NCBI GenBank assembly: GCA_038826135.1
Contig: JAWBON010000012.1
Location: 1-26,772 of the forward strand
Direction: 5' to 3'
From: Candidatus Odinarchaeota archaeon
Lineage (GTDB): Archaea > Asgardarchaeota > Odinarchaeia > Odinarchaeales > Odinarchaeaceae
Length of the DNA stretch: 26,772 bases
The stretch's first letter is position 1, and every line of letters begins with the position of its first letter. The notes under the pieces are model-generated. The model searched no databases and was not told the DNA's origin. It was given only the letters and a program-made list of their open reading frames with translations. Below, piece after piece: positions 10,466 to 16,762 of this stretch. The translations under genes and the position numbers were made by a program.

Positions 10466-10583
10466 TACCAGCCTTATATGAATACAGTGCATTTATATAT
10501 TTTTATATTGTAAAGGAGTGGAAAAGTATAAATATCGCTTTCGCTCAATTATATGTAGTAAAGCTACAAAAAAAGTGATTATT

Positions 10584-10811
10584 ATGGGGAGACAAATATA
10601 CTGCGTGACTGGCGAAGGGGAGTTAAAACCTGTAACTGAGCCCAATAAAAACTCGTGCGTAATAATAGTTGACTCCGAGAGCAGAACAATATATACATCC
10701 ATACCAGAAGAAGCCCCTGTTAGAGACAAATTTATAACAGCCAGGCTAGCAGCTGAATTAAAAAGAATGAACGGTTTGGTTTACAAGATACAGAATATAG
10801 CCACAGTTTAA
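10584..10811 (+). CDS. Minimal single gelsolin-like domain protein (Asgard type)
   Basis: NSCVIIVD...IYTSIP...VRDKFITARLAAELKR...YKIQNI follows the gelsolin repeat pattern (two strands, then long helix). Start taken as ATG 10584 (75 aa). Confidence 0.6.
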   Translation: MGRQIYCVTGEGELKPVTEPNKNSCVIIVDSESRTIYTSIPEEAPVRDKFITARLAAELKRMNGLVYKIQNIATV

Positions 10812-11105: not shown

Positions 11106-11477
11106 ATGGACGAGTTAGAGCGGATAAGACTTAAGAAAATGAAAGAAATGATCCAGAGAGTTAACGAGCAACATAAGCTGAAAGAACGTGAGGAGAAGTT
11201 AAGCCAGCAGAAGAGTAAATTTTTCAAAATTGTTTGCGAAGAGGAAGCGTTAAACTATCTGGATGAACTTCGCCGGTTAAAACCGGCTGTAGCCTCACAG
11301 ATTGAGGATATTATAATTACGATTGTTAACCAGTATGGGCTTCAATCTAAAATCTCGAAGACGGATATTATGCTATTAGAAAGGAGAATTGAGGGCAGAG
11401 GCCCTGAGATTAAAATTAAGAGAAGAGGTAAAGAGGAAACAGACATATCAAATATATTAGCTGACGATAAAACTTAG
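11106..11477 (+). CDS. PDCD5-family DNA-binding protein (MTH1615-like)
   Basis: MDELERIRLKKMKEM N-terminus, LKPAVASQIED core and IKIKRR near the C-terminus. Confidence 0.8.
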   Translation: MDELERIRLKKMKEMIQRVNEQHKLKEREEKLSQQKSKFFKIVCEEEALNYLDELRRLKPAVASQIEDIIITIVNQYGLQSKISKTDIMLLERRIEGRGPEIKIKRRGKEETDISNILADDKT

Positions 11478-11490
11478 TATATTAATTAAG

Positions 11491-11937
11491 CTAAGGACTT
11501 GTAGCTATGATTTTCTTAGTGTCTAACAGTTTAATATCATTAACTGTAATATCCAGTACACCTTTAACGTTTCTTTTAACATCCCTGATCATCATTTCCT
11601 GCCAAGTGGGATTTTTCAAATTTTTATAATCTGTAGAGCGAAAAACCAGATTCACGTTAACTATACATTGAGGTTTCTCCTCTAAACCAGGTTCCATGTT
11701 AACAAGCTCTTTTACCACCGGTTTCTCGACGGAGACCAACCACTGAGCTAATTTCTCATTACCACGCCGGGAGACTTTAATAGTATTCAAAACCGTTAAC
11801 ACATCTAAAACATCATAGATTCTTCTCTTTTTCTCGATAGGTAACTTGATTTTCCGGGCTATTTCAACCGCTGATAAAGGTTTACCTGACTCTCGAAGGC
11901 AGTCTACAATCTTTTTTGTAAGCTCTACAAGTTTCAA
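11491..11937 (-). CDS. Winged-helix DNA-binding protein with E2F/DP-like RRIYD recognition helix
   Basis: LVELTKKIVDCLRES...LSAVEIARKI...KKRRIYDVLDVL...QWL. TTG start after GAGGT. Confidence 0.7.
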   Translation of the reverse strand: MKLVELTKKIVDCLRESGKPLSAVEIARKIKLPIEKKRRIYDVLDVLTVLNTIKVSRRGNEKLAQWLVSVEKPVVKELVNMEPGLEEKPQCIVNVNLVFRSTDYKNLKNPTWQEMMIRDVKRNVKGVLDITVNDIKLLDTKKIIATSP

Positions 11938-12027
11938 AATAGATTACCTCAATAACACTATATAATTAAATATTGTGACTTGAAAAATATTAATTTATCT
12001 ATACTCTTTGAACGTCTTTAAGATATC

Positions 12028-12555
12028 TCAAGGTGTGGAATAAGGCTTTTTAAATATCATTTTCGAAATAGTGGTGAAAGATTCGTTAACACCTAAACCT
12101 GTTTTAGCGCTTGTCTCCAAGTATGATGAGCTCAGTTTTTCAGCGAATCCCTTAGCATCCAGTGTTTTAACCACCCGCATAGATGTTAAGTCAAGCTTGT
12201 TTCCTATAATGATGAGCGGGATTTTACCTTTAATATACTCGTTAAGTTCTTTCACCCAGTTATCTAAATTAGTAAAAGTGGATAACCGGGTTAGATCAAA
12301 TACTAGGATGGCCCCCGAGGCCCCCCTGTAGAAAACATTTCTAAAAAATCTGAATTTATCCTGGCCGGCTATATCCCATAGAGAGAGTTTAATTTCAAAC
12401 CCATCAACATAAACTGTTTTACTCATAATATCCACGCCGATTGTGGCCTTATAGTCTACTTCGAATCTTTCTTGAACGAATTTATTAATAAGCGAGGTTT
12501 TACCTACAGCAGGATCCCCTAATAACAGGATCTTAAATCTGTAACTGGGTTTCAC
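12028..12555 (-). CDS. Rab-like small GTPase (Ras superfamily)
   Basis: G1 GDPAVGKTS, switch I YKATIGVD, G3 WDIAGQ, FYRGA, LVFDLT, G4 GNKLD, G5 ETSAK. No C-terminal Cys. GTG start after GGAGGT. Confidence 0.93.
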   Translation of the reverse strand: MKPSYRFKILLLGDPAVGKTSLINKFVQERFEVDYKATIGVDIMSKTVYVDGFEIKLSLWDIAGQDKFRFFRNVFYRGASGAILVFDLTRLSTFTNLDNWVKELNEYIKGKIPLIIIGNKLDLTSMRVVKTLDAKGFAEKLSSSYLETSAKTGLGVNESFTTISKMIFKKPYSTP

Positions 12556-12692: not shown

Positions 12693-13547
12693 ATGCTGGA
12701 TAGTAACGTTTCAATAGAGAAAAACCCGCTGTTAAAACTATTAAAGCAGTATAGTAGAAAAGAGCTTACAACCGCATATAAGTCGCTTGGTTTTACCGGT
12801 GTGAAACTAAGAGAACTACTCTCAGCAGGCGTGGATCATAAGAGACTGCCACGTTTAATATGTTTATACTTATCATTGCAGCGTCTTTTAAATTTTAAAA
12901 ATATTTTTTGGGAGAATGACTGGCTGCTTTTCACAGTTAAAGATAAGAAAGCCAGTGAGAGTACAGATTTAAAGCAGGTTGAAAAACCAGGGTTGAAAGA
13001 CGATGACCGTGTTTATCTTTGGGTTGAAAGCCCTTTAAAATCTGAAATATTCCATTTATTTAATATCGAGCAGATGGGGGTAAAATCCACGGTTCAAGAT
13101 GCTTTAAAGAACATACTCGCTGTCCTGGATAAAAAAAGATTCATCCTGCTTATTAGAAACGGTTTAAAGGATGCTGAAAAGATTCTCAGGGAATTTAAGA
13201 ATAGCGCATTCCCATTCTATAAAATTAGTTTCCCAGCTTACATTATAAAAGAACTAGTCTGGAGTTGTAATGATGTTTTAACTGCTTCTATATCGTGCTC
13301 AAGAGAAATAAGCGGCACTGACGGTATTGACAGGATAATTTTCTATGGATGCAATGTTGGAAGAGGGATAACTGAACTGAATAGAAGACATGAAATAGAT
13401 TTAAGCAGACTTGGCAGTTGGACGGAAATCCAAACAAGCGATTTCTATCTGAATGTAGACGGTAAGATAAGGTTTAAGGATTATAATAGGTTACTGGAAT
13501 TTGTTGAAGGGAGAGAGAAGGATCTCCGTTACATTAAAACAATTTAA
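12693..13547 (+). CDS. Hypothetical protein (284 aa)
   Basis: Long ORF with normal composition; no motif recognised. Confidence 0.75.
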   Translation: MLDSNVSIEKNPLLKLLKQYSRKELTTAYKSLGFTGVKLRELLSAGVDHKRLPRLICLYLSLQRLLNFKNIFWENDWLLFTVKDKKASESTDLKQVEKPGLKDDDRVYLWVESPLKSEIFHLFNIEQMGVKSTVQDALKNILAVLDKKRFILLIRNGLKDAEKILREFKNSAFPFYKISFPAYIIKELVWSCNDVLTASISCSREISGTDGIDRIIFYGCNVGRGITELNRRHEIDLSRLGSWTEIQTSDFYLNVDGKIRFKDYNRLLEFVEGREKDLRYIKTI

Positions 13548-13660: not shown

Positions 13661-14167
13661 ATGGCTCTTAACTCGGAGAAGAGCAAGCTATTAAACCAGT
13701 GTTTTAAAAGCAGGATCAGAGACTGGGGTGGGAGCAAGGGTCTTCTCATACCGAACTCTGTGAATTTTCCTAAGGGACCGGTTGTTCTCGTCGAAGATAA
13801 AAACAAGTTAGAAGTGATATTCATCGGTTACGAGTTGCCTGTGTTTCTCAGCTTTGTAAAAAAACAGATCAACGGTGTTCTTAAAGACAGTGAGGGGAAA
13901 ATTATAGATTTGAACGATTTGAAAGAAAACCATATAAAGAGAATAGTTATAGCTGTTGAAGCCTTAGAGCAAAGAGCTTTAGCCGGGGCTGAAGAAACTG
14001 GTGATTCAGATGCAGCTCGAGAACTGTTCGGTAACATGGCTGCAGCGGTTAAAAAACACTTGGAACTGTTTCTAAATAGCACGCATTTAACAAGTAAATT
14101 ATACCATTTAACAAGGCTGAGTGATGAACTAGACTATGCTGTGAAAGCTTTAGACAGAGTTTTATAA
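13661..14167 (+). CDS. Protein with N-terminal AbrB/MazE/SpoVT-like DNA-binding domain and helical C-terminus
   Basis: SRIRDWGGSKGLLIPNSV resembles the AbrB/MazE 'xxWGNSxxxRIP' swapped-hairpin motif. Strong SD (GGGAGGGAG). Confidence 0.55.
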   Translation: MALNSEKSKLLNQCFKSRIRDWGGSKGLLIPNSVNFPKGPVVLVEDKNKLEVIFIGYELPVFLSFVKKQINGVLKDSEGKIIDLNDLKENHIKRIVIAVEALEQRALAGAEETGDSDAARELFGNMAAAVKKHLELFLNSTHLTSKLYHLTRLSDELDYAVKALDRVL

Positions 14168-16450: not shown

Positions 16451-16762
16451 ATGAAAACTTTACTTGTAGCACATGATATAAAGGAAAAAATCATGAATAT
16501 CGCGCAAAGGACAAACGAGTTTATAACAAAACAGTCGCCGGAGGGGACACTACTAGTATATGAGGAGTTAAATAATATATGGAAGTACTTGAACAGGCTT
16601 CAATCCTTTGAAACAAAGTATATAATAGAGATCATAATCAACATGTCAATAGCCTTCGAAGCGTATTTTGCAGGGGCAATAACAAAAGAGGAGCTTATAA
16701 CAAATATTTTAAAAAACAAAATCGTCAGCGAGTTGATAAACCATTTAAAAACCATAAATTAG
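16451..16762 (+). CDS. Small helical hypothetical protein (paralog of 17058..17354)
   Basis: GAGGGG SD before ATG; first of three closely spaced co-directional ORFs. Confidence 0.7.
   Translation: MKTLLVAHDIKEKIMNIAQRTNEFITKQSPEGTLLVYEELNNIWKYLNRLQSFETKYIIEIIINMSIAFEAYFAGAITKEELITNILKNKIVSELINHLKTIN

What the first reader, a model, noticed from the sequence alone, without database searches (positions are those of the whole stretch)
11491..11937. Archaeal protein resembling the E2F/DP cell-cycle transcription-factor DNA-binding domain
Seen: MKLVELTKKIVDCLRESGKPLSAVEIARKIKLPIEKKRRIYDVLDVLTVLNTIKVSRRGNEKLAQWLV (RRIYD at 11826-11812). Knowledge: the E2F/DP winged helix reads roughly SLxxLTxKFxxLL...xxAxxL...KRRIYDIxNVLExxxLIxK...IxW, and its RRxYD helix contacts the GC-rich core of E2F sites. 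The resemblance covers helix 1 (LTKK), the recognition helix and the final QW strand, not only the pentapeptide. The conserved Asn of NVL is Asp here. The C-terminal ~60 aa look like a small alpha/beta domain rather than the coiled-coil/marked-box. Inference: a candidate prokaryotic, probably homodimeric, precursor of E2F/DP, and the most striking signal in the window. I cannot tell whether it has been reported. The main alternative is a TrmB-like HTH, which also has a VYDVL-type helix.
Basis: partly seen in the sequence, partly recalled or inferred. Interest (0 to 1): 0.85.

Follow-up and report, generated by a model that had tools for sequence, protein, structure and literature searches.

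The report
Known Asgard archaeal E2F-like regulator
This gene encodes a small Odinarchaeia (Asgard archaeal) protein whose DNA-reading domain is a true relative of the eukaryotic cell-cycle factors E2F/DP; the family and its closest orthologs are already published, and the only new point is that its unique tail is predicted to pair two copies of the protein.

Summary
Window 11491-11937 (-) is a 148-aa ORF with the quoted sequence and RRIYD at 11826-11812.

- Pfam E2F_TDP scores above its curated cut-off.
- A profile of the archaeal family finds only E2F8, E2F4 and DP2 among all PDB sequences.
- It aligns with the whole DNA-binding domain of a vertebrate E2F2.
- TrmB gives no hit.

It is not new. 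Eme et al. 2023 (Nature, Suppl. 4.1.5 and sequence table) describe Asgard E2F/DP homologs and list three Odinarchaeia orthologs 70-73% identical to this protein. NCBI names one of them 'E2F family transcription factor'. This scan has also reported the family before on other DNA (19 notes, including the Ca. Odinarchaeum yellowstonii ortholog).

What I add:
- The C-terminal ~55 aa is an uncharacterised module found only fused to this winged helix (28 of 28 hits).
- It is predicted to form a homodimer. The genome has a single E2F-type gene, no Rb and no CC-MB domain.
- A second, more common Asgard architecture (winged helix, long helix, beta domain) coexists as a paralog in the sister family and aligns structurally with eukaryotic E2Fs beyond the DNA-binding domain.

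No target site could be inferred.

The parts
11491..11937 (-). E2F/DP-like gene: 148 codons plus stop, TTG start
   Evidence: ORF list and sequence. Orthologs are 46-73% identical, the same length and start M-K-L. It is the only PF02319 match in the genome.
11737..11937 (-). Winged-helix DNA-binding domain, residues 1-67 (H1 3-17, H2 23-29, recognition helix H3 34-49, beta-hairpin wing 53-66 ending in W66)
   Evidence: Pfam E2F_TDP 32.7 bits, over the 25.7 cut-off. AlphaFold model with pLDDT 83-92 over this part. Family profile hits only E2F8/E2F4/DP2 in the PDB. hhalign to the E2F2 DBD, probability 93%.
11812..11826 (-). RRIYD motif (R38-D42) in the recognition helix
   Evidence: K37, R38, R39, Y41, D42 and V43 are invariant in 27 proteins down to 21% identity. 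The motif aligns on the KRRIYD of E2F4 chain 1cf7_A. That it contacts the GC core is textbook knowledge of the E2F4-DP2-DNA structure and was not tested here.
11677..11736 (-). Variable linker, residues 68-87, predicted disordered
   Evidence: pLDDT below 50 for residues 69-87. Poorly conserved and of variable length in alignments A1 and A5.
11515..11676 (-). C-terminal 'type B' module, residues 88-141 (strand, two helices, strand): predicted homodimerisation domain of no known family
   Evidence: No Pfam, PDB-sequence or ESM Atlas feature match. As conserved as the DBD. Found only fused to PF02319, in 28 of 28 hits. The entire predicted dimer interface lies in residues 88-140.
11572..11586 (-). 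Invariant R-D-x-K-R motif (R118-R122) in the second helix of the C-terminal module
   Evidence: R118, D119, K121 and R122 are invariant in 27 proteins. D119 and R122 are in the predicted interface; R118 and K121 are not listed there. Its role is unknown.
11946..11970 (-). Putative own expression signals: AT-rich TATA-like TTTAATTATATA (11970-11959) and Shine-Dalgarno-like GAGGT (11950-11946), 8 nt before the TTG
   Evidence: Read directly from the sequence. The published gene calls of the orthologs carry 'start_type TTG, rbs_motif GGAG/GAGG, spacer 5-10 bp'. Promoter function is an inference.
12028..12555 (-). Upstream co-oriented neighbour: Ras/Rab-like small GTPase (context only, not shown to be functionally linked)
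   Evidence: Pfam Ras 3.9e-52. The adjacency is kept in G013 and in the sister family, but the gene is in two frames in G001 and was not found in G024.
11106..11477 (+). Convergent neighbour: PDCD5-like dsDNA-binding protein, ending 13 nt from the E2F-like stop
   Evidence: Pfam dsDNA_bind PF01984, 33.7 bits. The convergent pairing with a type B E2F-like gene recurs across the order and in a distant family at 31% identity.

Best explanation
The gene encodes a sequence-specific DNA-binding regulator of an Odinarchaeia (Asgard) archaeon. Its N-terminal 67 residues are a member of the E2F/DP winged-helix family, which reads DNA with the RRxYD recognition helix. Eukaryotic E2F pairs with DP through a coiled-coil/marked-box. 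This protein is instead the only E2F-type gene in its genome and most likely works as a homodimer, held together by its own conserved C-terminal strand-helix-helix-strand module. That module is joined to the two DNA-binding domains by flexible ~20-residue linkers. A homodimer of RRxYD helices would be expected to read a two-fold symmetric, GC-cored site, in the way the E2F-DP pair reads CGCGCG. Shown here: family membership of the DBD, conservation of the contact motif, single copy, and absence of Rb and CC-MB. Predicted only: dimerisation through residues 88-140. Inferred from the eukaryotic family: DNA binding, the type of site, and a regulatory role. The regulon, and any link to the cell cycle, are unknown.
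For: DBD membership:
- Pfam PF02319 scores 32.7 bits against a cut-off of 25.7.
- The family profile hits only E2F8 (1e-4), E2F4 (4.4e-4) and DP2 (0.036) among 177,635 PDB sequences.
- hhalign to the vertebrate E2F2 DBD covers residues 2-70 against 131-194, probability 93%, E 2.8e-7, 33% identity.
- The model has winged-helix topology with pLDDT 83-92.
- K-R-R-x-Y-D-V is invariant in 27 homologs.

Published family: three Odinarchaeia orthologs are listed as E2F/DP in Eme et al. 2023.

Single copy: one PF02319 match in this 93%-complete genome, and one in the complete single-contig genome of the same genus.

Dimer (complex prediction):
- Score 0.48, best of 3 controls 0.13.
- That mark was reached by 20 of 30 proteins solved as pairs of one chain and by 1 of 23 solved as single chains. 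These counts hold only roughly, because my own alignment was used.
- The runs agree in at least 78% of contacts and partner pLDDT is at least 66.
- The interface is confined to residues 88-140, with strand 91-99 pairing with itself across a two-fold axis.

The C-terminal module occurs only with PF02319 (28 of 28) and is as conserved as the DBD.
Against: - Fold searches rank generic winged helices first (Z-alpha, Hop2, ArsR/MarR, O-methyltransferase dimerisation domains). No E2F structure appears among the listed top hits, so the fold does not discriminate.
- The eukaryotic Asn after RRxYD is Asp/Glu here, so specificity may differ.
- Canonical E2F sites are not enriched in intergenic DNA. They are absent upstream of orc1/cdc6, ftsZ, mcm and the gene itself in this genome.
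- The dimer is a model's confidence, not a measurement.
Confidence: 0.7

Rival explanations
1. It is a true E2F/DP-type DNA binder, but the C-terminal module is not a homodimerisation domain. It would instead bind a ligand or another protein (a sensor or partner-docking domain), and the protein would bind DNA as a monomer or with an unidentified partner.
For: The invariant R118-D119-x-K121-R122 motif includes two basic residues that are not listed in the predicted interface, which would suit a further binding surface. The monomer model leaves the two flanking strands unpaired, so they could pair with another protein instead. In the sister family a type A paralog coexists, so mixed complexes are conceivable there.
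Against: The homodimer prediction passed its controls (0.48 against a best control of 0.13; 20 of 30 true homodimers and 1 of 23 single chains reach the mark). This genus has no second PF02319 gene. The module never occurs on other proteins or alone among the hits found.
Confidence: 0.18
2. It is an ordinary archaeal TrmB/MarR-type winged-helix regulator, and its RRxYD resemblance to E2F/DP is convergent.
For: The more common Asgard 'type A' relatives all give a weaker secondary hit to Pfam TrmB (14 of 14, best 4.5e-6). TrmB appears at E 0.12 in their PDB profile search. Structurally the domain is a generic winged helix.
Against: This protein gives no TrmB hit at E<=10, while E2F_TDP is over its curated cut-off. 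Only E2F and DP chains are found in the PDB by the family profile. The alignment to E2F2 covers the full domain. There is no TrmB C-terminal domain. 0 of 14 control prokaryote genomes reach the PF02319 cut-off.
Confidence: 0.04
3. It is a structure-specific nucleic-acid binder of the Z-alpha or Hop2 kind (Z-DNA/RNA or recombination intermediates) rather than a sequence-specific transcription factor.
Confidence: 0.03

Closest known systems
Asgard archaeal E2F/DP homologs (eukaryotic signature protein 'E2F/DP', PF02319, arCOG02749; Eme et al. 2023 Nature 618:992, Suppl. 4.1.5 and sequence table)
   Same: It is a direct ortholog, 70-73% identical and of the same length and architecture, of the listed proteins of Odinarchaeia LCB_4, RPA3 and J65_bin_29. 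The base-contact motif is equally conserved. It has the same phyletic pattern: present in many Asgard lineages and over the cut-off in none of the 14 control genomes.
   Different: This exact sequence is not in the stored part of the table. The paper states that homology is limited to the DBD and that the proteins lack a dimerisation domain. Here the C-terminal module is predicted to dimerise and is exclusive to this family.
Eukaryotic E2F1-6 and DP1/2 (E2F4-DP2-DNA structure 1CF7; Pfam E2F_TDP, E2F_CC-MB)
   Same: The winged-helix DBD shows full-length sequence similarity and an identical K-R-R-I-Y-D. It works in pairs if the dimer prediction is right.
   Different: It has no coiled-coil/marked-box, no transactivation or pocket-protein-binding tail, and no second family member to heterodimerise with. 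No Rb was found in the genome, and the only cyclin signal is sub-threshold. Asp replaces the Asn that follows RRxYD. Pairing is by an unrelated strand-helix-helix-strand module.
Asgard 'type A' E2F-like proteins (e.g. L008, 183 aa; the commonest form in the phylum)
   Same: They share the same DBD family, the same M-K-L N-terminus and the RRxYD motif. They are paralogs that coexist with type B in the sister family.
   Different: Type A has a 37-residue helix plus a beta domain after the DBD. It aligns with eukaryotic E2Fs over residues 1-172 by Foldseek and into the coiled coil by hhalign. The type B tail is unrelated to the type A tail (hhalign probability 0.1%).
TrmB family (PF01978)
   Same: It is an archaeal winged helix that also works as a dimer. 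Type A Asgard E2F-likes show a weak secondary TrmB signal, so the two families may be distantly related.
   Different: This protein gives no TrmB hit, has no TrmB effector domain, and RRxYD is not a TrmB signature.

Membership tests
E2F/DP winged-helix DNA-binding domain (Pfam PF02319) | Score over the curated Pfam gathering threshold | tested here: met
   32.7 bits against 25.7, E 6.3e-8. In the six-frame genome search, 33.8 bits.
E2F/DP winged-helix DNA-binding domain (Pfam PF02319) | Winged-helix topology (H1, H2, recognition helix H3, beta-hairpin wing) | tested here: met
   AlphaFold model: H3-17, H23-29, H34-49, strands 53-58 and 61-66, pLDDT 83-92.
E2F/DP winged-helix DNA-binding domain (Pfam PF02319) | RRxYD motif in the recognition helix, conserved among homologs | tested here: met
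   R38, R39, Y41 and D42 are invariant in 8 close homologs and in 27 more distant ones.
E2F/DP winged-helix DNA-binding domain (Pfam PF02319) | Reciprocal specificity: the family profile finds E2F/DP and not other winged helices | tested here: met
   Only E2F8, E2F4 and DP2 fall below E 0.1 in all PDB sequences. hhalign to the E2F2 DBD gives probability 93%.
E2F/DP winged-helix DNA-binding domain (Pfam PF02319) | Closest structural neighbours are E2F/DP structures | tested here: inconclusive
   Foldseek and VIA list generic winged helices. E2F chains are not among the rows shown. Small winged helices are not resolved by fold.
E2F/DP winged-helix DNA-binding domain (Pfam PF02319) | Binds TTTSSCGC-type DNA through the two arginines | not testable with these tools
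   This needs EMSA, SELEX or DAP-seq. Motif counts in the genome gave no signal.
Canonical eukaryotic E2F or DP protein (full architecture) | Coiled-coil/marked-box dimerisation domain (PF16421 or the DP domain) | tested here: not met
   There is no such hit in the protein or anywhere in the genome. The model shows no long helix after the DBD.
Canonical eukaryotic E2F or DP protein (full architecture) | A second family member to form the E2F-DP heterodimer | tested here: not met
   One PF02319 match in this genome, which is 93% complete, and one in the complete genome of the same genus.
Canonical eukaryotic E2F or DP protein (full architecture) | Regulation by pocket proteins (Rb) and cyclin/CDK | tested here: not met
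   RB_A gives no match. Cyclin_N gives only two sub-threshold repeats in one 331-aa ORF, which I read as probably TFB (inference). The protein ends at residue 148 with no extra tail.
Asgard E2F/DP homologs (Eme et al. 2023) | Orthology to proteins listed in the published ESP table | tested here: met
   P0002, P0003 and P0004 (70-73% identical) are the RPA3, J65_bin_29 and LCB_4 entries in the table. Synteny with them is conserved.
TrmB family (PF01978) | Pfam TrmB hit and TrmB C-terminal effector domain | tested here: not met
   No TrmB hit at E<=10. The C-terminus matches no family.
Z-alpha domain (PF02295) | Score over the Pfam cut-off | tested here: not met

The most novel reading that the evidence does not exclude
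Asgard archaea already had two paralogous E2F-like lineages with different pairing modules. Type A has a winged helix, a coiled coil and a beta domain, co-linear with eukaryotic E2F beyond the DBD. Type B is the form in this window, with its own strand-helix-helix-strand dimerisation module. On this reading, pairing modules, and perhaps an A/B partnership that foreshadows E2F-DP, predate eukaryotes. That would contradict the published statement that the archaeal proteins share only the DBD and lack a dimerisation domain. This Odinarchaeia genus would have kept only the type B homodimer.
Probability: 0.12. Interest if true: 0.7.

Novelty: already known. Interest (0 to 1): 0.3.

Why it matters
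E2F/DP drives the G1/S transcription programme of eukaryotes, and its archaeal relatives are one of the few links between Asgard archaea and eukaryotic cell-cycle control. That link is already in the literature, so this gene adds only one more ortholog. No Asgard E2F-like protein appears to have been characterised biochemically in the papers I could search. A 148-aa, single-copy protein from a thermophile, predicted to homodimerise, would be a convenient first subject for structure and DNA-specificity work. Such work would show whether the RRxYD reading of GC-cored sites, and pairing as a principle, predate eukaryotes.

Tried and rejected
1. Fold searches as a discriminator. Foldseek against the PDB and Swiss-Prot, and VIA, with the type B model return only generic winged helices. 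No E2F/DP chain is among the rows shown. This is uninformative rather than negative.

2. Identity of the C-terminal module. Pfam on residues 70-148 gives only a sub-threshold C2 hit in one of three proteins. The profile against PDB sequences finds nothing. The ESM Atlas gives no feature hit, and its structural rows have TM <= 0.54 to unrelated families. hhalign against the type A tail gives probability 0.1%.

3. Target sites. TTTSSCGC, GCGCGC, CGCGCG and GGCGGG are not enriched in intergenic DNA. The de novo 8-mer outliers with a CCCGCC core turned out to be Shine-Dalgarno-like elements 0-10 nt before starts, or tRNA-like sequence.

4. No TTTSSCGC lies within 250 nt upstream of orc1/cdc6, ftsZ/tubulin, mcm or the E2F-like gene in this genome.

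5. A 12-mer, AAGCGCTAAAAC, is shared by the orc1 upstream region and the region upstream of this gene. It is the codons of the GTPase G5 motif and recurs inside other GTPase genes. GCGCTAAAA occurs 23 times against 19.5 expected. This is coincidence.

6. Functional coupling to the Rab-like GTPase. The adjacency is conserved in part of the order, but the GTPase is in two frames in one congener and was not found in another. There is a 90-nt AT-rich spacer with promoter-like signals. No evidence of an obligate operon.

7. Marked-box homology of the type A beta domain by sequence. hhalign gives probability 0.08%, and Pfam E2F_CC-MB is not hit at E<=1.

Full report
OBSERVATION. RRIYD (residues 38-42) maps to 11826-11812. 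A GAGGT lies 8 nt before the TTG, and an AT-rich TATA-like element lies further upstream in the 90-nt spacer after the preceding gene. All homologs begin M-K-L. The published gene calls of the orthologs also use TTG with a GGAG/GAGG ribosome-binding site.

WHAT THE N-TERMINAL DOMAIN IS. Pfam E2F_TDP (PF02319) matches residues 3-55 at 32.7 bits, above its curated cut-off of 25.7. TrmB (PF01978) does not appear even at E<=10. The single sequence finds E2F4 (1cf7_A) as its best PDB hit, but weakly (E 0.072). A profile of eight orthologs makes the test reciprocal and specific: among 177,635 distinct PDB sequences, the only matches below E 0.1 are E2F8 (1e-4), E2F4 (4.4e-4) and DP2 (0.036).

A profile of 27 proteins with this architecture aligns residues 2-70 with residues 131-194 of a vertebrate E2F2-like protein. 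That is the whole Pfam-defined DBD (129-192), at probability 93%, E 2.8e-7 and 33% identity. The AlphaFold model is a winged helix (H1 3-17, H2 23-29, H3 34-49, hairpin 53-66) with pLDDT 83-92.

K37, R38, R39, Y41, D42 and V43 are invariant in 27 proteins down to 21% identity. The Asn that follows in eukaryotes is Asp or Glu here. Fold searches are no help: Z-alpha, Hop2, ArsR/MarR and O-methyltransferase winged helices come first. The assignment therefore rests on sequence profiles, not on fold.

ORGANISM, DISTRIBUTION, COPY NUMBER. The closest named relative (71% identity) is 'E2F family transcription factor [Candidatus Odinarchaeum yellowstonii]'. The window lies in a 1.26-Mb genome that is 93% complete, with exactly one PF02319 match. 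In a sample of 301 genomes of the phylum, 122 have a match over the cut-off. The family-level pattern is strong (for example 68/76 and 17/19 against 0/68 and 0/29), and most genomes have one copy. None of 14 control genomes is over the cut-off.

ALREADY PUBLISHED. Eme et al. 2023 (PMC10307638) devote Supplementary section 4.1.5 to 'E2F/DP'. They report homologs in most Asgard groups and none in other archaea, with a conserved DBD including the base-contact residues. They state that homology is restricted to the DBD, that there is no dimerisation or regulator-binding domain, and they propose that eukaryotic E2F/DP arose from the Asgard gene.

Their sequence table lists the Odinarchaeia LCB_4, RPA3 and J65_bin_29 proteins. 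These are my P0004, P0002 and P0003, 70-73% identical to the window's protein. The exact sequence of this window is not in the stored part of the table. A review repeats the point (PMC7617429). Earlier notes of this scan reached the same verdict on the LCB_4 ortholog and on many other Asgard members.

THE C-TERMINAL MODULE. Residues 88-141 are as conserved as the DBD. They include an invariant R118-D119-x-K121-R122. They match no Pfam family and no PDB sequence, and give no ESM Atlas feature hit. A profile of this module alone retrieves 28 proteins of 147-197 aa. Every one carries PF02319. They come from Odinarchaeia, unclassified Promethearchaeota and a Hodarchaeota MAG. It is therefore a dedicated partner of this winged helix.

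In the monomer model it is two helices flanked by two extended segments left unpaired. In a two-copy prediction the segments pair: score 0.48 (runs 0.48, 0.51, 0.45) against a best control of 0.13. That mark was reached by 20 of 30 proteins solved as pairs of one chain and by 1 of 23 solved as single chains (roughly, since my own alignment was used). The runs agree in at least 78% of contacts and pLDDT is at least 66. The interface is confined to residues 88-140, with strand 91-99 antiparallel to itself across a two-fold axis. This supports homodimerisation but does not show it. It also qualifies the published statement that these proteins have no dimerisation domain.

TWO ARCHITECTURES. Translating the loci shows a second, commoner form, which I call type A. 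It is mostly 183 aa, with the same M-K-L N-terminus and RRxYD motif, then a heptad-rich segment and a beta-rich tail. Its model has a winged helix at 1-64, a helix at 74-110 and strands at 117-164. Its tail is unrelated to the type B tail (hhalign probability 0.1%). The sister family of this genus has both types in one genome, so they are paralogs. This genus has only type B.

With the type A model, the 23 best Swiss-Prot AlphaFold matches are all eukaryotic E2Fs. The alignments span query residues 1-172, for example human E2F1 130-304, with E 9.5e-6 to 1.6e-3. TM by query is only 0.31-0.41 and rmsd is 11-20 A. hhalign runs co-linearly from the DBD into the coiled-coil part of E2F2's CC-MB domain (6-109 against 135-237). 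The beta domain shows no sequence signal to the marked box, and PDB fold searches were swamped by the winged helix. This is suggestive, not established, and it concerns relatives rather than the window's gene.

CONTEXT. The order HTH24, orf168, orf284, Rab-like GTPase, E2F-like, then convergent PDCD5-like, orf97 and radical SAM is conserved in the genus and the sister family. However, the GTPase is in two frames in G001 and was not found in G024. The convergent E2F-like/PDCD5-like pair recurs in a distant family at 31% identity. Type A loci show neither neighbour within the fetched loci, which extend about 1-1.5 kb to each side. I read this as inherited synteny, with no evidence of functional coupling.

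PARTNERS AND TARGETS. The genome has no E2F_CC-MB and no RB_A. The only Cyclin_N signal is two sub-threshold repeats in one 331-aa ORF, which I take to be TFB (inference).

Canonical E2F sites are not enriched in intergenic DNA. GC-cored 8-mer outliers are ribosome-binding-site-like or tRNA-like. No TTTSSCGC lies upstream of orc1/cdc6, ftsZ/tubulin, mcm or the gene itself. A shared 12-mer proved to be GTPase G5 codons. The binding site and regulon therefore remain unknown.

VERDICT. The modest additions are the predicted, family-exclusive homodimerisation module of this 'type B' form, the A/B paralogy, and the hint that type A resembles eukaryotic E2F beyond the DBD.

Noticed in passing
L008:1144-1692 (-), with L003-L007, L012-L014, L016-L019 and L029: The commonest Asgard E2F-like form ('type A', about 183 aa) has a winged helix, a 37-residue helix and a beta domain. 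Its model's top 23 Swiss-Prot AlphaFold hits are all eukaryotic E2Fs, aligned over residues 1-172. hhalign runs co-linearly into the coiled coil of E2F2's CC-MB domain. The beta domain shows no sequence signal to the marked box. This conflicts with the published 'homology restricted to the DBD'.
   Followed up: partly
L029 (G035:C10) and L025 (G035:C52): The sister family of this genus carries both a type A and a type B E2F-like gene in one genome, so the two forms are paralogs. This genus keeps only type B.
   Followed up: partly
window 11106-11477 (+) with 11491-11937 (-); also L028 and L020: The convergent pairing of the type B E2F-like gene with a PDCD5-like dsDNA-binding gene (PF01984), 13 nt apart here, recurs in a distant Asgard family at 31% identity.
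   Followed up: partly
window 12028-12555 (-); L022:6279-6769; L024: The Ras/Rab-like GTPase upstream of the E2F-like gene matches in two overlapping pieces in different frames in the complete genome of a congener, and gives no match in another congener. This may be a frameshift or a loss.
   Followed up: no
G000:C9:16449-22419 (-), outside the window: The MCM helicase matches lie scattered in one open frame of about 1990 codons, as expected if the gene holds several inteins.
   Followed up: no
G000 genome-wide, e.g. C6:28428, C7:2942, C11:24441: GGCGGG-containing elements sit 0-10 nt before many start codons and look like a Shine-Dalgarno variant. aragorn found only 12 tRNAs, although several more intergenic stretches look tRNA-like.
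   Followed up: no
window 10518-10811 (+), 12693-13547 (+), 13661-14167 (+), 16451-16762 (+): Four neighbouring ORFs have no Pfam family. The first three tested are conserved in synteny across the order.
   Followed up: no
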